Shown here: positions 7,676 to 41,121 of the stretch, one piece after another
Numbering within the stretch: position 1 is the stretch's first letter
How the letters are laid out: each line of letters begins with the position of its first letter
From: Pseudomonadota bacterium
Lineage (GTDB): Bacteria > Pseudomonadota > Gammaproteobacteria > UBA9214
DNA length: 64,000 bases
Reading direction: 5' to 3'
Assembly (NCBI GenBank): GCA_039714155.1
Contig: JBDLJX010000001.1
Span: 65,257-129,256 of the forward strand
Notes under the pieces: model-generated
Told to the model about the DNA's origin: nothing
Databases searched by the model: none
What the model saw: the letters and a program-made list of their open reading frames with translations, nothing else
Made by a program: the position numbers and the translations under genes

Positions 7676-7917
7676 GCCCTGCGTTCCGATAGTGATGTGA
7701 GTTTACTGGTAACAATGCCCGCATCGGGCAGCTGTAATTTGACGCTGAAGAATAATGTGACGCATGCTCAAAGTACAGCTGATACAGCAATTCAGCATGT
7801 AAATTCCGAGATCTCCTAGCGACACCGGGCACCATTCAAGAGTGATGTGGTATCATAGCCCGGCAACAGCCCCGGAAGAACAGTTCATCATTCACGACCG
7901 GCACTCATCTGATTCAG

Positions 7918-21103: not shown

Positions 21104-21122
21104 GAGTAAATAATGTCAGTAT

Positions 21123-21228
21123 GTAGCCCGGATGCAGCGTAGCGCAATCCGGGGAAAAGACAAGCCAGCCCCGGATTCCGGTCCCCGCCTTCGCGGGGGC
21201 AGGCACTTACGGCCTCCATCCGGGCTAC
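21123..21228. repeat. REP-like element, family B, copy 1
   Basis: GTAGCCCGGATGCAGCGTAGCGCAATCCGGGG ... CCATCCGGGCTAC forms terminal inverted repeats with inner GC hairpins. It sits in the lysS-prfB spacer. The unit resembles E. coli REP in form (GTAGGCCGGAT..GGCGT..ACGCC..ATCCGGC). Confidence 0.7.
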
Positions 21229-25479: not shown

Positions 25480-25508
25480 ATTGTTTATCCAGGTTTTAAT
25501 GTTCAGAC

Positions 25509-25619
25509 GTAGCCCGGATGAAGGCCGTCAGGGCCTGCCCCGGCAATGGGTAAGCCGGGGCCGTAATCCGGGATTGAGACTTCATTCCCCCGGATTTCGC
25601 TACGCTACCTCCGGGCTAC
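25509..25619. repeat. REP-like element, family B, copy 2 (inverted pair of units)
   Basis: GTAGCCCGGATGAAGG...at the left end and CCCCCGGATTTCGCTACGCTACCTCCGGGCTAC at the right end. The right end is the reverse complement of the family B unit. It sits in the thrC-hom spacer. Confidence 0.7.
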
Positions 25620-31576: not shown

Positions 31577-32572
31577 TTAGCTCTTTGGCAGATAGCGGAG
31601 CGGATTCACCGGCTTGCCGTCCTTGCGTATTTCAAAGTACAGCTGGGTCCGGTCCGTTCCACTGTTACCCATACGGGCAATGTTCTGCCCTGCCTTGACG
31701 TGCTGACCTTCTGCTACCAGCAGTTCGCTGTTGTGACCATAGGCACTCAGCAAACTTTCGGTATGTTTTATGATGATAAGCCGGCCATACCCGACAAGTC
31801 CACTCCCGGCATACACAACCTTGCCATCGGCTGCCGCTATCACTGACTGCCCGGTCTTGCCGCCGATATCAATGCCTTTTTGTCCTTCACTGCCGGGGTG
31901 AAATCCCTTCAGCAACTGGCCCTTCGTCGGCCATACCCAGCGCCTGACATTACCCGGCAACTGTTTGTTTGCAGTCGCAACCGGTTGTATTGATGGCACT
32001 GCCTTGTTAGCAGATGTTGGGACTGGCGCCGGTTTGGCTGTAGCAGCCGGTTTCGGAACGGACTTCGCCACCGGCTGGGGTGCCAGCGAAGATGATACCG
32101 GCCTGGCACGCAACCGCTGCCCGGTATAAATAGTATAAGGCGAATGAATATGGTTCATCGCAGCCAGTTCCCGAAAGCCCAGGCCATGCTGCCAGGCAAT
32201 CGAGTACAACGTCTCACCACGCCTCACAATATGATAACCGGGGGTTGTCCGTGGCACTGGCTGATGTGCCCGTGGCACCGGCTGCTGTGCCCGTGACACC
32301 GGCTGCTGTGCCCGTGACACCGGCTGCTGTGCCCGTGACACCGGCTGCTGTGCCCGTGACACCGGCTGCTGTGCCCGTGGCACCGGCTGCTGTTTACGTA
32401 CCGGGTAGGTTTGCACTGTCGCTGTTTCTGATGAAGTCCGATCTGCCGGCTTTGCGGTTGTGTGTTTCTGATTCGAGTCACGGCTGCCCACCGGTGCATA
32501 TACCGGTTGTGAACTGCAACCGGCAAGCAGCAACACCAGTAATGGCACGCACAGCAATCGCATCGACATCAT
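31577..32572 (-). CDS. nlpD: Lipoprotein NlpD (LysM + M23 peptidase domain)
   Basis: Lipobox start [19 protein letters not shown]. It has a LysM (..[15 protein letters not shown]..) and a C-terminal M23 domain. The ORF-track N-terminal 173 aa, which overlap the upstream gene, were rejected. Confidence 0.85.
32250..32396. repeat. Seven-copy 21-bp tandem repeat inside nlpD (encodes a (QQPVSRA)n linker)
   Basis: Forward-strand units GTG(A/G)CACCGGCTGCTGTGCCC repeat seven times. The protein segment is ...[51 protein letters not shown]... Confidence 0.85.
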
Positions 32573-33809: not shown

Positions 33810-33839
33810 GGTTTTGGCCCTTCTCTCATTGTTTACTCT

Positions 33840-33951
33840 GTAGCCCGGATGGAGCGTAACGGAATCCGGGGATGAATATGGATTTCCCCGGGTTCCGGCC
33901 CCCGGCTTACCCGCTGCCGTGGCAGGTTCTCCGAGCCTGCGCCCGGGCTAC
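33840..33951. repeat. REP-like element, family B, copy 3
   Basis: GTAGCCCGGATGGAGCGTAACGGAATCCGGGG ... GCGCCCGGGCTAC. It sits in the pcm-surE spacer. Confidence 0.7.
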
Positions 33952-35430: not shown

Positions 35431-35728
35431 GAATTCATTCTCGATTTACACCGGCCGGGCACCTGAATGCCTGATCGCGACTGAAATCGCTTTCTACGAG
35501 AAAGTCATAAAACCGCCGCAGGAGCGGCTTCAGCTGCGATCAGAACTATGGATGTCCGGCGGCATTTCCAGAGAAAGCAAGTCAGCCGACAGGGGTTCAT
35601 CCGTGGGTGTCGGCAGCAGGGACGCTGCCGTCAAGCCTACAGGGACGTATTTACGGCGTCCCACGGATGAGCCCCTGTCGGCTGGCCAATGAACTCATTG
35701 GTAATCGCGGCTGAAGCCGCTCCTACAG
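35431..35728. repeat. Intergenic repeat cluster: REP family D units flanking a family C element
   Basis: D-type units (core GATCGCGACTGAAGTCGCTCCTAC, a hairpin GCGAC-TGAA-GTCGC) lie at about 35431-35447 and 35470-35500 as one inverted pair. Two more lie at 35516-35543 and 35703-35728, inverted with respect to each other. That second pair flanks family C copy 1 (35577-35694). Confidence 0.65.
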
Positions 35729-35740
35729 AAAATTGTCGGG

Positions 35741-36799
35741 TTACGGCACTGATCTAATCAGCTCCCGCAACACGCTGGTTGCATAACAGCCGGCTGGTAA
35801 GGTGAATTCCAGTTGCAGGGTATGCTGTTCCGGCCATGACCAGGTCATGTTTGCCGGCACAACCCGCAAGGCACGGCGCTCCTGTTTCAGCCCCGCGGCT
35901 TCGAGGCCCTGTTGCCAGTCCGTAAACGGCGCCAGACAGTCTGCTTCCAGTTGCCGGCAGTCCGCGACTACCGGACTCTCACCCTTGCCATGCATTGGCC
36001 CGGTGGGATTGATATCGTGCGTCTGCAAGCGCTGCTGCAAATCTGCATCAATAACCTCGGCAATAAAGAAACTGTGACTGCCTGACAATTGCACTGCCTC
36101 GCCCGGTAACAGCTGGTTCCAGCTACCGGCAGCCACGCGGTGCGCCAGTACCCGGTTAAACAGGAACGCCCGCGCCGCTGACAATGCCAGGCCGCGCTGC
36201 TGCCGTGACAGGCGTCGACCGGTGCCGGCAAACAGCCGGTCAGCCGTGTCGAGGTTACTGCCACCCCGGCCAAAACGCTGTTCACCGAAGTAACCGGGCA
36301 CACCCGCGCGAGCTACCTGCTGCAGGCGGGTCATCAGCAAGTCCGTGTCACCGTCAATATCACGCACCCGGATACGAAACGCGTTACCTCGCAGAGCACC
36401 CCGGCGCAGCTTGCGGGTATGGCGGACATGACGCACACAGCTGAGGTCTTCGCTGTCCAGCGCAGGCCAGTCGGGTTCCTTGCTACCCGGCAGATGCACC
36501 GAGAACCACTGTTCTGTCAGCGCATGGCGGTCTTTCATGCCGGCAAAGCTGACGTTACGCAGCGATACATCGGCGAGTTGTGCCAGCCGCCCGGCGACCG
36601 CAACAGTATTCAGCCCGCGCTTGCGTATCAGCAACCAGACATGCTCACCCTCGCCCGTCGGTTCGACCAGCGGCAGTTCGGTAACCTGAAAATCCTCCGC
36701 CAGACTGCGCAAGTGACCACGTACCGGCGGCCCACCATGCGCGCAGGCAAGGCCGGCAATGGCATGGTCCAGTGAATACACCGATGAGCTAGCCCGCAT
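35741..36799 (-). CDS. truD: tRNA pseudouridine(13) synthase TruD
   Basis: 352 aa with TruD signature blocks (..LRNVSFAGMKDRHALT.., ..GVPGYFGEQRFG..). It is downstream of ispF as in many gammaproteobacteria. Confidence 0.85.
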   Translation of the reverse strand: MRASSSVYSLDHAIAGLACAHGGPPVRGHLRSLAEDFQVTELPLVEPTGEGEHVWLLIRKRGLNTVAVAGRLAQLADVSLRNVSFAGMKDRHALTEQWFSVHLPGSKEPDWPALDSEDLSCVRHVRHTRKLRRGALRGNAFRIRVRDIDGDTDLLMTRLQQVARAGVPGYFGEQRFGRGGSNLDTADRLFAGTGRRLSRQQRGLALSAARAFLFNRVLAHRVAAGSWNQLLPGEAVQLSGSHSFFIAEVIDADLQQRLQTHDINPTGPMHGKGESPVVADCRQLEADCLAPFTDWQQGLEAAGLKQERRALRVVPANMTWSWPEQHTLQLEFTLPAGCYATSVLRELIRSVP

Positions 36800-37273
36800 T
36801 CAGGCTTCAATCAGCACAACCGCAAACGCCACAATCCCTTCACCACGTCCGGTAAAGCCCATCTGCTCGGTCGTGGTGGCCTTGACGCTGACATGCTCAA
36901 CCGTGAGACCGAGATCGGCAGCGATATTGGCGCACATCGCCGGGATGTGCGTAGCAAGACGCGGCGTCTCCGCGACAACGGTAATGTCGGTATTGACGGG
37001 TTGATAGCCGGCCTCACTGACAAGCCCGACAGTGTGTTGCAGCAGGATGCGGCTGTCGATGTCCTTGTAGGCAGGATCATCCGGCGGGAAGCGCAGGCCG
37101 ATATCGCCAAGTGCGGCGGCACCCAGCAAGGCGTCACACAAGGCGTGCAACACGACGTCGCCATCAGAGTGCGCTGCAAGTCCCTGGTCATGCGGAATTT
37201 CCACACCACCCAGCACCAGCCGGCCACCCGATTTGAAGGCATGGGCATCAACACCCTGTCCGATACGAATCAT
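36800..37273 (-). CDS. ispF: 2-C-methyl-D-erythritol 2,4-cyclodiphosphate synthase
   Basis: 157 aa starting MIRIGQGVDAHAF...SDGDVVLHA.., with the zinc ligands conserved. Confidence 0.9.
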   Translation of the reverse strand: MIRIGQGVDAHAFKSGGRLVLGGVEIPHDQGLAAHSDGDVVLHALCDALLGAAALGDIGLRFPPDDPAYKDIDSRILLQHTVGLVSEAGYQPVNTDITVVAETPRLATHIPAMCANIAADLGLTVEHVSVKATTTEQMGFTGRGEGIVAFAVVLIEA

Positions 37274-37995
37274 GTGTCACGATTCTCCAGATAATGCGCC
37301 GCCAGTGCCAGGTCGGAAGCCACGGTAATCTTGATATTGTCTCGATGCCCCTCGACCATGCGCGGCGTGTAGCCGGCCGCCTCCATGGCGGAGGCCTCGT
37401 CTGTCAGGCTGATGCCGGCAGCGATACCCTGCTGCAACGCCGCGCGCAGTTGGCCGAGTCGGAACAGTTGCGGGGTCAGGGCATGCCACAGCCCCTGCCG
37501 ATCGACGGTTGCCGTCACCCCGCCAGTGGCAGCAACCCGCTTCATGGTGTCACAGACCGGTACACCAAGCAGGCCGCCATCCGTAGCGGCTACCAGCGTA
37601 TCGATCAGCACGTCGATGTCAGCCGGACGAACACAGGGCCGCGCCGCATCGTGCACCAGCACCCAGTCATCGTCACCGGCATGCCCGGACAGGTATGTCA
37701 ACGCATGCAGTACCGAGTGACAACGCTGCTCGCCACCGGCCACCTGCTCCAGCCGCTTGCCAGTGAACGTATCAGCCACGACAGGCCAGGCGCTGTCAGC
37801 ATCGGCGATGGCTACCACAACACCGGTAATGCGTTCGACCGAAAACAATGCCGCAAGCGTGTGTTCAAGTACGGTCTTGCCGGCGAGCGGCAGGTATTGC
37901 TTGGGGGTGGCTGACTGCATGCGAGCGCCACTGCCGGCCGCCGGGACCACGGCCCAGACCATCGGCTGGTTATTATGGGTAGATGCGTTTGACAC
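37270..37995 (-). CDS. ispD: 2-C-methyl-D-erythritol 4-phosphate cytidylyltransferase
   Basis: Contains ..AVVPAAGSGARM.. and ..KQYL... The true start is probably the Met at about 37962. It overlaps ispF by 4 nt. Confidence 0.9.
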   Translation of the reverse strand: MSNASTHNNQPMVWAVVPAAGSGARMQSATPKQYLPLAGKTVLEHTLAALFSVERITGVVVAIADADSAWPVVADTFTGKRLEQVAGGEQRCHSVLHALTYLSGHAGDDDWVLVHDAARPCVRPADIDVLIDTLVAATDGGLLGVPVCDTMKRVAATGGVTATVDRQGLWHALTPQLFRLGQLRAALQQGIAAGISLTDEASAMEAAGYTPRMVEGHRDNIKITVASDLALAAHYLENRDT

Positions 37996-38015
37996 GACAG
38001 AGGAAGGTGTGGCAG

Positions 38016-38285
38016 CTATTCAACCACCTGGTAGAAAACCTCACCTTCCTTGACCATGCCCAGGTCCTCACGCGCATGTTCCTCGACGGCATCAAGGCCC
38101 TGTTTGAGATCCAGCACCTCGGCATTCAGGGCCGCGTTGCGTTCTCGCAGGCGCTCATTCTCCTCGCGCTGCACCTCCACGTTCTGGTACTGGTCCCAGA
38201 GATCCAGCAGGCCGCCATCGCCAAGCCACAGGGTCAATTGCAGCACCAGCAGCAGCAGCAACAGTCCGAGGAACAGGTTCTTCAT
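38016..38285 (-). CDS. ftsB: Cell division protein FtsB
   Basis: 89 aa with an N-terminal TM (LFLGLLLLLLVLQLTLW) and a coiled coil (..QREENERLRERNAALNAEVLDLK..). It sits upstream of ispD as in Pseudomonas and E. coli. Confidence 0.8.
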   Translation of the reverse strand: MKNLFLGLLLLLLVLQLTLWLGDGGLLDLWDQYQNVEVQREENERLRERNAALNAEVLDLKQGLDAVEEHAREDLGMVKEGEVFYQVVE

Positions 38286-38560
38286 GCTAGTGTGGTGTAA
38301 CGGATAACGTGTACGTATCAGCGAGACGAGAAGCCGTTAGCTGCAAGGCGCGTCTCGCAGGGAATGGCGTGCCCTTTACAAGAGACGCAACACCGCAGAT
38401 GACGGCTTCTCGTCTCGCCCGAAGGGAGGCCCACAAATGACCCAATACTGCGTTGCAGCCTTTGTTAAGGGAATAGCCATTAACTGCAGGCTGCGCCTTG
38501 TCCTGGGTCATTTGTGGGCCTCTGATATGTGCACGTTATCCGTTACACCGCACTAGTGCC
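38286..38560. repeat. About 270-bp element made of nested inverted repeats (element E), MITE-like
   Basis: The outer 27-bp inverted repeat is TAGTGTGGTGTAACGGATAACGTGTAC (38289-38315) against GTGCACGTTATCCGTTACACCGCACTA (38529-38556). Inside are further perfect stems: CAGCGAGACGAGAAGCCGT with ACGGCTTCTCGTCTCGC, and GGCCCACAAATGACCCAA with TTGGGTCATTTGTGGGCC. The element starts 3-4 nt from the ftsB start codon. Confidence 0.6.
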
Positions 38561-38581
38561 CGCCCCGGCAGTCAATCTAGC

Positions 38582-38740
38582 CCGCACTTCTCACCGCGGG
38601 GCGAGATGATCGCGAAGAGATTTGGATTCACAGCGGATTTTCTGAAGAAGCGGAATACGGACTGTATTTCCGACTGAAGAAAATGCGCTGTGGATTCAAA
38701 GATCAAGCGAGGGCTCGTCATCGTGGTGAGAAATGCGGGC
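38582..38740. repeat. REP family A copy 2, split by an about 100-bp palindromic insertion
   Basis: 38582-38608 CCCGCACTTCTCACCGCGGGGCGAG and 38709-38740 CGAGGGCTCGTCATCGTGGTGAGAAATGCGGG together equal the reverse complement of copy 1 (17082-17134). The 100-nt insert between them (38609-38708) has its own imperfect terminal inverted repeats (TGGATTCACAGCGGATTTTC / GAAAATGCGCTGTGGATTCA). Confidence 0.65.
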
Positions 38741-38775
38741 TAGAGGCATGTGCGTCAAGGCAGCCGTCATCCGGA

Positions 38776-40071
<1,296 letters not shown>

Positions 40072-40137: not shown

Positions 40138-40251
40138 CCAAGTCAGCCGTCCGGGTTATCCGTGGGTGTCGGCAGCAGGGACGCTGCCGTCAAGCCTGCA
40201 GGGACGGATTCACGGCGTCCCACGGATAGTCCGGTCGGCTAACCAATGAAC
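40138..40251. repeat. Family C structured element, copy 2
   Basis: About 95% identical over an 85-nt core to 35577-35694 (ATCCGTGGGTGTCGGCAGCAGGGACGCTGCCGTCAAGCCT.CAGGGACG....ACGGCGTCCCACGGAT). The flanks diverge but both can pair. It sits in the kdsA-eno spacer. Confidence 0.6.
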
Positions 40252-40281: not shown

Positions 40282-41121
40282 CTACTGCATCAATTCCGTT
40301 TCCGGGAACGGCTGTGATTTGACCGTGCTGTCAATCTGTTTGAGTATCTCCAGCAGTTCCCGCATGCGCGACAACGGCCAGGCATTGGGACCATCACTCA
40401 GGGCCTTTTCCGGTTCGGGATGGGATTCCATGAACAGACCGGAGATACCCACTGCCATGGCGGCCCGCGCCAGCACCGGCACAAACTCGCGCTGGCCACC
40501 GGAACAGCTACCCTGCCCGCCCGGCAGTTGCACGGAATGGGTGCCATCAAACACGACCGGCACATTGCAGTCACGCATGACGGCCAGTGAACGCATGTCG
40601 GACACCAGGTTGTTATAACCGAATGATGCGCCGCGCTCACAAACCATGATCTGTTGATTACCGGTTGCGAGTGCCTTGTCGGCAACGTTCTTCATGTCCC
40701 ACGGTGACAGGAACTGGCCCTTCTTGATATTCACCGGTTTTCCCTGGCGCGCGACATTCTGGATAAAATTGGTCTGTCGGCACAGAAACGCGGGGGTCTG
40801 CAGGACATCGACAACCGCAGCGACTTCTTCCAGCGGCGTATCTTCATGCACATCGGTCAGCACCGGTACACTCAGCTGGTCTTTCACCATTTGCAGAATA
40901 CGCAAACCCTCCTCCAACCCCGGGCCGCGGAAACTCGCATGCGAGGAGCGGTTGGCCTTGTCGAAGGATGACTTGTAGATAAACGGAATCTGCAACGACG
41001 CCGTAAGTTCCTGCAGCTGGCCAGCGGTATCAATCGCGAGCGCCTCGCTTTCGATTACGCAGGGACCCGCAATCAAAAAGAAAGGCTGGTCAAGGCCGGC
41101 CTCGAAACCACACAATTCCAC
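40282..41121 (-). CDS. kdsA: 3-deoxy-8-phosphooctulonate (KDO-8-P) synthase
   Basis: 279 aa with ..[11 protein letters not shown].. and ..[11 protein letters not shown].. signatures. It lies between pyrG and eno as in Pseudomonas. Confidence 0.9.

What the first reader, a model, noticed from the sequence alone, without database searches (positions are those of the whole stretch)
38286..38775. The eno-ftsB spacer is filled by nested palindromic insertions abutting the ftsB start codon
In Pseudomonas-type genomes the eno-ftsB spacer is short. Here it is about 490 bp and consists almost entirely of two things.

- Element E (about 270 bp) has a 27-bp terminal inverted repeat and at least three internal perfect stems of 17-19 bp.
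- A REP family A copy is split in two by a 100-bp insert that has its own terminal inverted repeats.

Element E begins 3-4 nt from the ftsB ATG, which leaves ftsB with no recognisable Shine-Dalgarno sequence. This is a natural example of MITE-into-REP nesting. It is also a structured leader that could gate translation of an essential divisome gene. Alternatively E could be an unannotated structured RNA.
Basis: seen in the sequence. Interest (0 to 1): 0.65.

Follow-up and report, generated by a model that had tools for sequence, protein, structure and literature searches.

The report
Two mobile palindromes fill eno-ftsB spacer
The 490-bp gap between eno and ftsB is a 52-bp spacer swollen by two small non-coding transposable elements (MITEs) that landed on rare CTAG sites. 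One of them separates ftsB's likely ribosome-binding site from its start codon, which is a tidy but fairly ordinary case of selfish DNA.

Summary
The spacer at 38286-38775 contains two palindromic elements.

- **E**: 264 bp, 38290-38553.
- **R**: 161 bp, 38580-38740. It is a 55-bp hairpin element, with an intact copy at 17081-17135, carrying an extra 101-bp palindromic segment in its loop.

Close relatives (FtsB 97-98% and 87% identical) have a 52-bp spacer. Deleting E plus one TA and R plus one TA restores gapless colinearity with them. Both elements are flanked by duplicated TA inside CTAG.

E is a dispersed family. It sits at nine or more unrelated loci in sediment metagenomes and MAGs, as full-length, internally deleted and TIR-only forms, in both orientations. 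Its stems are kept by compensatory changes. E has no Rfam match, no promoter-like or terminator-like site, and no strand bias.

CTAG is almost absent from this genome (9 observed, 237 expected). Scarce targets would explain why elements pile up here.

E is a new MITE family, probably mobilised by an IS630/Tc1-type transposase. No transposase was found.

E sits between a Shine-Dalgarno-like GGGGCGGG and the ftsB AUG. Its 35-bp outer stem could bring the two back together. That idea is untested.

The "REP" label and the RNA-gene reading are not supported.

The parts
38776..40053 (-). eno (enolase, 425 aa), the upstream gene of the spacer
   Evidence: ORF found. Pfam Enolase_N and Enolase_C hit the orthologues in L004-L007.
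38743..38775 (-). Ancestral spacer segment 1: from the eno stop to the first CTAG target
   Evidence: Colinear with L001, L002 and L003 once the elements are removed.
38741..38742 (.). TA, one copy of the target duplication of element R (inside CTAG 38740-38743)
   Evidence: Relatives L001 and L002 have a single CTAG here.
38580..38740 (.). Element R: a 161-bp hairpin MITE (GCCCGC...GCGGGC).
   Evidence: Arms of 23 nt, 91% complementary. Intact 55-bp copy at 17081-17135. Absent from relatives.
38606..38706 (.). A 101-bp palindromic segment inside the loop of R, bracketed by GCGAG direct repeats at 38601-38605 and 38707-38711. Its own inverted repeat is 38621-38643 / 38678-38700.
   Evidence: No other copy was found in the window, in the loci or in viral contigs.
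38578..38579 (.). TA, the second copy of the target duplication of R (inside CTAG 38577-38580)
38556..38577 (-). Ancestral spacer segment 2. It includes the SD-like GGGGCGGG (plus-strand CCCGCCCC, 38559-38566).
   Evidence: Identical to the L003 spacer. Predicted duplex with the anti-SD is -7.0 kcal/mol.
38554..38555 (.). TA, one copy of the target duplication of element E (inside CTAG 38553-38556)
38290..38553 (.). Element E: a 264-bp MITE (GTGTGG...CCGCAC). It has outer TIRs, two hairpins of about 97 nt (38321-38418 and 38426-38522) and an invariant CCCGAAGGG junction (38418-38426).
   Evidence: Family members occur at other loci.
38288..38289 (.). TA, the second copy of the target duplication of E (inside CTAG 38287-38290)
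38016..38285 (-). ftsB (89 aa). Its ATG lies 4 nt from the end of E.
   Evidence: Pfam PF04977; sources name it FtsB.
17081..17135 (.). Second, uninterrupted copy of element R (55 bp), flanked by TA on one side and CA on the other

Best explanation
**What the spacer is.** It is an ancestral spacer of about 52-61 bp into which two unrelated, non-coding, cut-and-paste-type elements inserted independently. Each inserted at a TA inside a CTAG and duplicated that TA.

**Element E.**
- E is 264 bp and belongs to a previously undescribed MITE family of uncultured sediment Gammaproteobacteria.
- It has terminal inverted repeats of about 32 bp enclosing two long hairpins and a small junction hairpin.
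- This shape is maintained across diverged copies.

**Element R.**
- R is a 55-bp hairpin MITE. Here it carries an additional 101-bp palindromic segment.
- That segment is most likely a third insertion with a 5-bp duplication.
- Alternatively, the long form is original and the 55-bp copy is a deletion product.

**Likely mobilising enzyme.** TA duplication with CTAG preference is the behaviour of IS630/Tc1-mariner transposases. A trans-acting enzyme of that type is therefore the likeliest mobiliser. This is inferred; no transposase was found.

**Why the elements pile up here.** CTAG is about 25-fold under-represented in this genome, so the few intergenic CTAGs act as traps. Each insertion also regenerates CTAG at both junctions.

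**Consequence for ftsB (inferred).**
- There is no promoter-like or terminator-like signal in the spacer, so ftsB is probably still read through from eno. The leader would be a very stable 490-nt structure.
- E now separates the SD-like GGGGCGGG from the AUG.
- The insertion is tolerated for one of two reasons. Either the outer stem of E loops the element out and restores SD-AUG proximity, or ftsB in this clade does not depend on an SD. The 87%-identical relatives have none.
For: **Empty sites**
- L001, L002 and L003 (FtsB 97-98% identical) and L004-L007 (87%) have a 52-bp spacer.
- Removing E+TA and R+TA gives a gapless alignment with L003.

**Dispersal of E**
- Full copies are in L009, L012/L019/L020 and L017.
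- Copies cut off by a contig end are in L015, L018 and L024.
- Internally deleted copies are in L013, L021, L023, L022/L026 and L029.
- TIR-only forms are in L027 and L030. Single-end remnants are in L008, L016 and L025.
- The flanking genes are unrelated to one another: sdhD-sdhA, folC-dedD and others.

**Target duplication**
- Six of 11 copies with both ends present have TA on both sides.
- The base next to each TA on the element side (G on the left, C on the right) is invariant. The base on the outer side varies (mostly C...G, also G, T, C, A). This fits a TA duplication with CTAG preference better than a 4-bp CTAG duplication.
- IS630 and ISY100 behave this way (PMC2170065, and the Tenzen & Ohtsubo 1991 title in its reference list).

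**Structure kept**
- 94.6% of cells are paired. Ten pairs show changes on both sides. 0 of 500 shuffles, and 0-1 in the slid controls, reach this.

**CTAG scarcity**
- 9 observed against 237 expected in the window, and 4 of the 9 are these junctions.
- Observed/expected is 0.11 in the related loci.

**Signals in the spacer**
- No promoter-like or terminator-like site.

**SD-like motif**
- -7.0 kcal/mol in relatives and in the 5' flank of E, against +1.2 for the 24 nt now preceding the AUG.

**R as a TIR element**
- The same 19-nt end, with CTAG junctions, bounds contigs L031 and L032.
Against: - No cognate transposase, and no full-length element with E or R termini, was found in the window, in the 32 fetched loci or in plasmids.
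- Only one E copy and two R copies lie in the 64-kb window, so copy number in this genome is unknown.
- At the E site the relatives read CCAG, not CTAG. The precise pre-insertion target is therefore inferred.
- Two E copies (L009 and L019) have an extra T before the right-hand TA.
- The polarity of the 101-bp segment (insertion or deletion) is unresolved.
- Everything about transcription, RNA processing and translation of ftsB is inference from sequence and predicted folds.
Confidence: 0.85

Rival explanations
1. E is a functional structured RNA (a cis-regulatory leader or a small RNA gene) selected at this site to control ftsB, rather than selfish DNA.
For: - The predicted fold is very stable (z = -16.4).
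- Stems are kept by compensatory changes.
- The junction motif CCCGAAGGG is invariant in all copies.
- E lies next to cell-division genes in three settings: upstream of ftsB here, downstream of ftsB in L003, and upstream of dedD in L009 and L027.
Against: - E is absent from the eno-ftsB spacer of the closest relatives.
- It occurs at unrelated loci and in both orientations relative to transcription.
- It decays to deletion forms.
- There is no Rfam match and no promoter-like or terminator-like site.
- There is no excess of G-U over A-C mismatches on either strand.
Confidence: 0.05
2. Element R is a REP/REPIN mobilised by a RAYT (IS200/IS605-like) transposase, as the label 'REP family A' implies.
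For: It is a short GC-rich intergenic palindrome present more than once in the window. A separate, classical-looking REP family also exists in the window (families D10 and D12).
Against: - R is flanked by duplicated TA at a site that carries a single TA in relatives. REPs make no target duplication (established knowledge of the family).
- Each arm is not itself a palindrome.
- Its 19-nt end also terminates longer repeats in L031 and L032.
Confidence: 0.08
3. There is no nesting. The 161-bp form of R is the original element, and the 55-bp copy at 17081-17135 arose by deletion between the two GCGAG repeats.
For: - E-family members repeatedly lose their interior by deletion. L009 and L027 are the same site carrying the full form and a 45-bp form. 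L013, L021, L022 and L029 are further examples.
- A 5-bp direct repeat is equally what a microhomology deletion would leave behind.
- No second copy of the 101-bp segment was found anywhere.
Against: - The 101-bp segment has its own near-terminal inverted ends (TGATC...GATCA) directly inside the GCGAG repeats, and a self-contained palindrome.
- The loop sequences on either side align with the intact copy.
Confidence: 0.35
4. The arrangement is an assembly artefact of the MAG: repeats wrongly joined.
For: Related metagenome contigs break at E (L001, L002, L003, L015, L018, L024, L028).
Against: Both elements are embedded in unique sequence that is colinear with three independent assemblies. Both have exact TA duplications. 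A chimeric join would not create these.
Confidence: 0.02

Closest known systems
Correia repeat-enclosed elements (CREE) of Neisseria
   Same: - Small non-coding elements with terminal inverted repeats and a TA target duplication.
- Inserted close to gene starts and co-transcribed into mRNAs.
- Their long paired TIRs are RNase III substrates that alter expression of the neighbouring gene (PMC2649163 abstract; PMC10969869).
   Different: - No sequence similarity was detected.
- E is longer (264 bp) and has two large internal hairpins and a junction hairpin.
- No promoter-like hexamers lie at its ends.
- An IHF site was not tested.
- The hosts are uncultured sediment Gammaproteobacteria.
IS630/Tc1-mariner insertion sequences and their MITEs (such as ISY100 and Stowaway-type elements)
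   Same: Insertion into TA with TA duplication. IS630 itself prefers TA within 5'-CTAG-3' (PMC2170065 and its reference list). E and R show the same junctions.
   Different: No transposase gene or full-length partner with matching ends was found. The assignment rests on target behaviour only.
REP/REPIN elements mobilised by RAYTs
   Same: Short GC-rich intergenic palindromes that accumulate between genes of an operon.
   Different: R and E have target duplications and TIRs, and empty sites show precise insertion at TA. REP arms are themselves palindromic units; the R arms are not.
ERIC/IRU and other enterobacterial palindromic MITEs
   Same: Imperfect palindromes transcribed within operon spacers. 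They can change mRNA stability (PMC10969869).
   Different: Unrelated sequence, and a different architecture and size.
Split ribosome-binding sites of phage T4 genes 38 and 25
   Same: A hairpin between the SD and the AUG brings them to a functional distance (PMC3014915). The outer stem of E lies exactly between an SD-like motif and the ftsB AUG.
   Different: The T4 hairpins span 22-27 nt and are experimentally proven. Here the looped-out segment is 268 nt, it is a transposon, and nothing has been tested.

Membership tests
MITE (miniature inverted-repeat transposable element) | Small (under about 500 bp) with no coding capacity | tested here: met
   E is 264 bp and R is 55 or 161 bp. The only ORF in E (74 aa) is not kept open in L009, and it differs at about 14 of 74 residues between the window and L012.
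MITE (miniature inverted-repeat transposable element) | Terminal inverted repeats | tested here: met
   E: 35 nt at 91%. R: 23 nt at 91%. The TIRs are the most conserved part across copies.
MITE (miniature inverted-repeat transposable element) | Target-site duplication, shown by comparison with an empty site | tested here: met
   TA lies on both sides of E and of R. There is a single TA (or CA) at the empty sites of L001-L003, and colinearity is gapless after removal.
MITE (miniature inverted-repeat transposable element) | Multiple copies at unrelated loci | tested here: met
   - E occupies at least 9 distinct loci across MAGs and metagenomes.
- R has 2 copies in the window, and its termini occur in L031 and L032.
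- Copy number within this genome is unknown.
IS630/Tc1-mariner-mobilised element | TA dinucleotide target, duplicated | tested here: met
   - Six of 11 two-ended E copies have TA on both sides. Two have a 1-nt offset and three have one mutated flank.
- The element-side neighbours of TA are invariant and the outer neighbours vary.
IS630/Tc1-mariner-mobilised element | A cognate DDE transposase gene bounded by the same TIRs, somewhere in the host genomes | not testable with these tools
   None is present in the window or in the 32 loci. Plasmid searches were negative.
REP/REPIN (RAYT-associated) | No target-site duplication; the unit is itself a short imperfect palindrome | tested here: not met
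   R has a TA duplication. Its 19-23-nt arm GCCCGCAYTTCTCACCRCG is not self-complementary.
REP/REPIN (RAYT-associated) | A RAYT gene in the genome, flanked by the repeats | not tested
   Only 64 kb of the genome was available and the ORFs were not screened for Y1 transposases.
Described structured RNA family (Rfam 15) | A match to a covariance model | tested here: not met
   Only two sub-threshold microRNA-model hits, with E-values of 0.09 and 5.9.
Intrinsic terminator or promoter-bearing element | GC hairpin followed by a T-run, or -35/-10 hexamers | tested here: not met
   No site of either kind in 37900-39000 on either strand.
Split (hairpin-bridged) ribosome-binding site | An SD-like motif and the AUG immediately flank the base of a stable stem; disrupting the stem lowers translation | tested here: inconclusive
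   The geometry is met: GGGGCGGG-CA-[stem]-C-AUG. The functional criterion cannot be tested here. The 87%-identical relatives lack any SD.

The most novel reading that the evidence does not exclude
E was inserted exactly between the Shine-Dalgarno-like GGGGCGGG and the AUG of the division gene ftsB (essential in E. coli). It may be tolerated because its 35-bp terminal stem folds the 264-nt element out of the mRNA. That would rebuild a 'split' ribosome-binding site of roughly the original 7-nt effective spacing. If so, the self-complementary architecture of this MITE family, kept by compensatory changes, acts as a self-masking device that lets the elements occupy the few CTAG targets even inside translation-initiation regions. 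It would also make ftsB translation depend on stem folding or on RNase III.
Probability: 0.15. Interest if true: 0.6.

Novelty: new member of a known kind. Interest (0 to 1): 0.3.

Why it matters
- This is a clean natural before-and-after example. There are empty sites in sister populations, and a second independent E insertion lies on the other side of the same 270-bp gene.
- It shows how TA/CTAG-targeting MITEs colonise operon spacers in a genome that has almost eliminated CTAG.
- It adds a new MITE family, with an unusually elaborate and conserved four-helix architecture, from uncultured sediment Gammaproteobacteria.
- It offers a testable case of a transposon sitting between an SD-like motif and the start codon of a divisome gene.
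- For annotation, it warns that such spacers are selfish DNA rather than riboswitches or small RNA genes.
- It does not reveal a new kind of system.

Tried and rejected
- **Rfam scan of 37900-39000, E-value up to 10.** Only noise hits to microRNA models.
- **Promoter and terminator scan.** Nothing found.
- **blastn of E, and of the interior flanking the R-like terminus in L032, against PLSDB plasmids.** No match, so no annotated parent IS could be identified.
- **Search for copies of R, the 101-bp segment and family F in all fetched loci.** None outside the window.
- **Viral-contig scans.** The 101-bp segment and E gave 0 hits. The R terminus gave 2 phage-like contigs, which showed only that this terminus also bounds longer repeats.
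- **Strand-of-selection test, G-U against A-C mismatches.** 21 against 14, with about 12 of the 21 coming from two invariant pairs, so there is no bias. RNA-level selection in one orientation is rejected as unsupported.
- **A 4-bp CTAG duplication (IS5-type).** Considered, and judged less likely than a TA duplication. The element-side positions next to TA are invariant while the outer positions vary.
- **IspD homologue search, meant to recover the far side of the sister lineage's E insertion.** No close relative above 74% identity, so the right flank of that insertion remains unseen.
- **The 74-aa ORF inside E.** Rejected as coding (see the membership test).
- **A possible excision footprint in the window's ftsB-ispD spacer (CCACAC).** Too weak to claim.

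Full report
**1. What is there**

All genes in this region are on the minus strand:
- kdsA, 40282-41121
- eno, 38776-40053
- ftsB, 38016-38285
- ispD, 37270-37995
- ispF, 36800-37273
- truD, 35741-36799

The ftsB product (89 aa) is identical to a protein named FtsB in an NCBI MAG labelled 'Pseudomonadota bacterium', on a 153-kb contig. Its relatives come from Thiohalobacterales and other uncultured Gammaproteobacteria.

The eno-ftsB spacer is 38286-38775, 490 bp.

- **Element E.** The outer inverted repeat is 35 nt (91%). Inside it are two hairpins of about 97 nt. Their outer stems are 24 nt (17 of them perfect) and 19 nt (perfect).
- **The second element.** It has 23-nt arms, and an inner segment with its own 23-nt inverted repeat.

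None of these arm sequences recurs in shuffled windows. As RNA, the spacer folds far more stably than its shuffles (-265.9 against -167 kcal/mol, z = -16.4).

**2. Empty sites**

FtsB homologues at 97-98% identity (L001, L002, L003) come from three independent assemblies. Homologues at 87% identity (L004-L007) lie in the same kdsA-eno-ftsB-ispD-ispF-truD context. All have a 52-bp eno-ftsB spacer.

On the transcribed strand the relatives read:

...GCCTCTAG(A/C)TTGACTGCCGGGGCGGGCACCAG-CATG

The window reads:

...GCCTC-TA-[R]-TA-GATTGACTGCCGGGGCGGGCAC-TA-[E]-TA-GC-ATG

Deleting 38290-38555 and 38580-38742 gives a sequence that aligns with L003 without a single gap. The remaining 9 bp of extra length arise because the window's eno stops three codons earlier.

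Exact limits:
- E is 38290-38553 (264 bp), with TA at 38288-38289 and 38554-38555.
- R is 38580-38740 (161 bp), with TA at 38578-38579 and 38741-38742.

**3. E is a dispersed family**

An 18-22-nt TIR pattern was scanned against one genome per species and against JGI metagenomes. It found four real loci among MAGs (plus three chance hits) and 16 metagenome loci.

The copies fall into these classes:
- Full-length copies at 88-96% identity: L009, L012/L019/L020 and L017.
- Copies cut off by contig ends: L015, L018, L024, L028.
- Internally deleted derivatives: L013, L021, L023; and L022/L026, L029.
- Forms retaining little more than the two TIRs: L027, L030.
- Single-end remnants: L008, L016, L025.

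The flanking genes are unrelated to one another: sdhD-sdhA in L012, folC-dedD in L009, and others. Relative to local transcription, both orientations occur.

L009 (full length) and L027 (45-bp remnant) occupy the same folC-dedD site. Internal deletion therefore happens in place.

In the sister lineage of the window, L003 carries 30 nt of E, 100% identical to the window's copy, starting 9 nt after the ftsB stop codon. Contigs L001 and L002 break exactly at that TA. E has therefore landed independently on either side of this 270-bp gene in two closely related populations. The far flank of the sister insertion could not be recovered.

**4. Target and likely mechanism**

Of 11 E copies with both ends present, six have TA/TA. 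Two have TA with one extra T, and three have one mutated flank.

The base directly inside each TA (G on the left, C on the right) never varies. The base outside does vary: mostly C and G, but also G, T, C and A. That asymmetry fits an element GTGTGG...CCACAC that duplicates TA and prefers CTAG. It fits less well with a 4-bp CTAG duplication.

R shows the same junctions. In L001 and L002 its empty site is a single CTAG.

Insertion into TA with TA duplication, and preference for TA within CTAG, are documented for IS630 and ISY100 (PMC2170065 and its cited Tenzen & Ohtsubo 1991). I therefore infer mobilisation in trans by an IS630/Tc1-mariner-type transposase.

This inference rests on target behaviour alone. 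No transposase gene and no long element with matching ends was found in the window, the fetched loci or the plasmid collection.

**5. Why here**

CTAG occurs 9 times in the 64-kb window, against 237 expected from base composition (ratio 0.04). Other 4-bp palindromes range from 0.5 to 1.9. Four of the nine CTAGs are the junctions of E and R. The related loci are also CTAG-poor (ratio 0.11).

With so few targets, a spacer that holds a CTAG is a trap. Each insertion also regenerates CTAG at both ends. This accounts for two unrelated elements landing 22 bp apart.

It also fits the wider picture. A third palindromic family ('F') occupies the kdsA-eno spacer and the region downstream of truD.

**6. 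Structure of E**

The predicted fold is a four-helix junction:
- the outer stem;
- hairpin A;
- a tiny hairpin at the invariant CCCGAAGGG;
- hairpin B.

Nine aligned rows represent about seven independent lineages. Across them, 94.6% of cells are paired and ten pairs show changes on both sides. No shuffle of 500 reached this, and the slid controls gave 0-1.

The palindromic architecture is therefore maintained. There is no excess of G-U over A-C mismatches in either orientation. The constraint could thus act on DNA, on RNA in both orientations, or through arm-to-arm correction.

There is no Rfam match and no promoter-like or terminator-like site.

**7. Element R and the 'nesting'**

The 55-bp copy at 17081-17135 matches the two halves of R. 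The matches overlap by 5 nt (GCGAG), so the extra 101 bp at 38606-38706 is bracketed by a 5-bp direct repeat.

The segment has inverted ends (TGATC...GATCA) and an internal palindrome, which favours a third insertion. However, no other copy of it was found. The E family also shows that interiors are often lost by deletion. The opposite polarity, with the long form ancestral, therefore remains possible. I put it at about 35%.

R is not REP-like. It makes a target duplication and its arms are not palindromic units. Its 19-nt end, again joined to CTAG, bounds two phage-like contigs whose ends carry about 100 nt of a longer repeat.

**8. Consequence for ftsB (inference)**

In the empty-site relatives a GGGGCGGG lies 7 nt before the AUG. 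Its predicted pairing with the anti-SD is -7.0 kcal/mol, comparable with the better SDs in this window.

In the window that motif is intact but lies on the far side of E. The 24 nt now preceding the AUG are the E TIR, with no SD (+1.2).

Nothing in the spacer looks like a promoter or terminator, so ftsB is most likely read through from eno.

Two readings explain why the insertion is tolerated.
- **(a) Split RBS.** The outer stem of E pairs from the base next to 'GGGGCGGGCA' to the base before 'C-AUG'. This would loop out the element and restore proximity, as in the hairpin-bridged RBSs of T4 genes 38 and 25 (PMC3014915).
- **(b) SD-independent initiation.** The 87%-identical relatives have no SD-like sequence at all.

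Long perfect stems are also potential RNase III substrates, as shown for Correia elements (PMC10969869; PMC2649163). None of this can be decided by computation. Predicted folds near the AUG change with the boundaries chosen.

**9. Verdict**

The mobile-DNA reading is right, the REP label is wrong, and the RNA-gene alternative is unsupported.

This is a new MITE family behaving like known TA/CTAG-targeting elements, so it is a new member of a known kind. Interest is modest. The split-RBS possibility and the extreme scarcity of CTAG are the points worth following up.

Noticed in passing
window 40142-40243 and 35583-35684: A third palindromic repeat family ('F': 25-nt inverted repeat ...ATCCGTGGG / CCCACGGAT..., 95% identical over 70 nt). 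It sits in the kdsA-eno spacer, which is 228 bp here against 141 bp in L004, and downstream of truD. One 5.5-kb operon therefore carries at least four palindromic elements (two copies of F, plus E and R), and a fifth if the 101-bp segment inside R is counted as a separate element.
   Followed up: partly
whole window (CTAG at 7816, 8634, 36789, 38287, 38553, 38577, 38740, 48894, 57249): CTAG is extremely depleted: 9 observed against 237 expected (ratio 0.04), while other 4-bp palindromes range from 0.5 to 1.9. Four of the nine are the E and R junctions. Related loci show a ratio of 0.11.
   Followed up: yes
L003 1144-1173; ends of L001 and L002: In the sister lineage (FtsB 97-98% identical) the eno-ftsB spacer is empty. 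A copy of E starts 9 nt after the ftsB stop codon, and three independent assemblies break at or just inside it. This is an independent insertion on the other side of the same small gene, or a local hop.
   Followed up: partly
L009 6065-6330 versus L027 481-525: The same folC-dedD site carries a full-length E in one assembly and a 45-bp TIR-only remnant in another. This shows in-place internal deletion of the element.
   Followed up: partly
L020 2470-2520 versus L019 9310-9355: Two contigs share the E copy and its right flank (the sdhD end) but have different left flanks. This is either a rearrangement at E or a chimeric assembly.
   Followed up: no
L031 1-124; L032 1-124 and 4668-4768: Two phage-like contigs (terminase, portal and capsid ORFs) are bounded by inverted copies of a repeat of about 100 nt. 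Its outermost 19 nt equal the R terminus, and it is joined to CTAG. R termini therefore also belong to a longer repeated element in another community.
   Followed up: partly
window 21122-21155, 33839-33872, 25497-25523: A separate, classical-looking REP family (GTAGCCCGGATG.AGCG.A.CG.AATCCGGGGA) is present in the window.
   Followed up: no
window 36789-36800: The first codons of truD (ATGCGGGCTAGC) share 12 nt, including one of the rare CTAGs, with the R terminus (AATGCGGGCTAG). In the window truD abuts the ispF stop and encodes 352 aa. In L004 there is a 27-nt spacer and the protein is 371 aa. An element remnant may supply the start codon, or this may be coincidence.
   Followed up: no
window 38762-38779 versus L003 800-817: The eno C-terminus differs: ...AAAFNKV* in the window against ...AAGFNQPSSG* in relatives. 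The perfect small hairpin CCGTCATCCGGATGACGG that overlaps the eno stop codon in relatives is half lost in the window.
   Followed up: no
window 32225-32413: A tandem array of seven 21-nt units (TGCCCGTGACACCGGCTGCTG), 90-94% identical. It is probably a coding heptapeptide repeat.
   Followed up: no
window 37996-38015 and 37962: ispD also lacks an SD before either candidate start: GTG at 37995, or the ATG used by the NCBI annotation that gives a 230-aa protein. Weak or absent SDs seem usual for ftsB and ispD in this clade.
   Followed up: no
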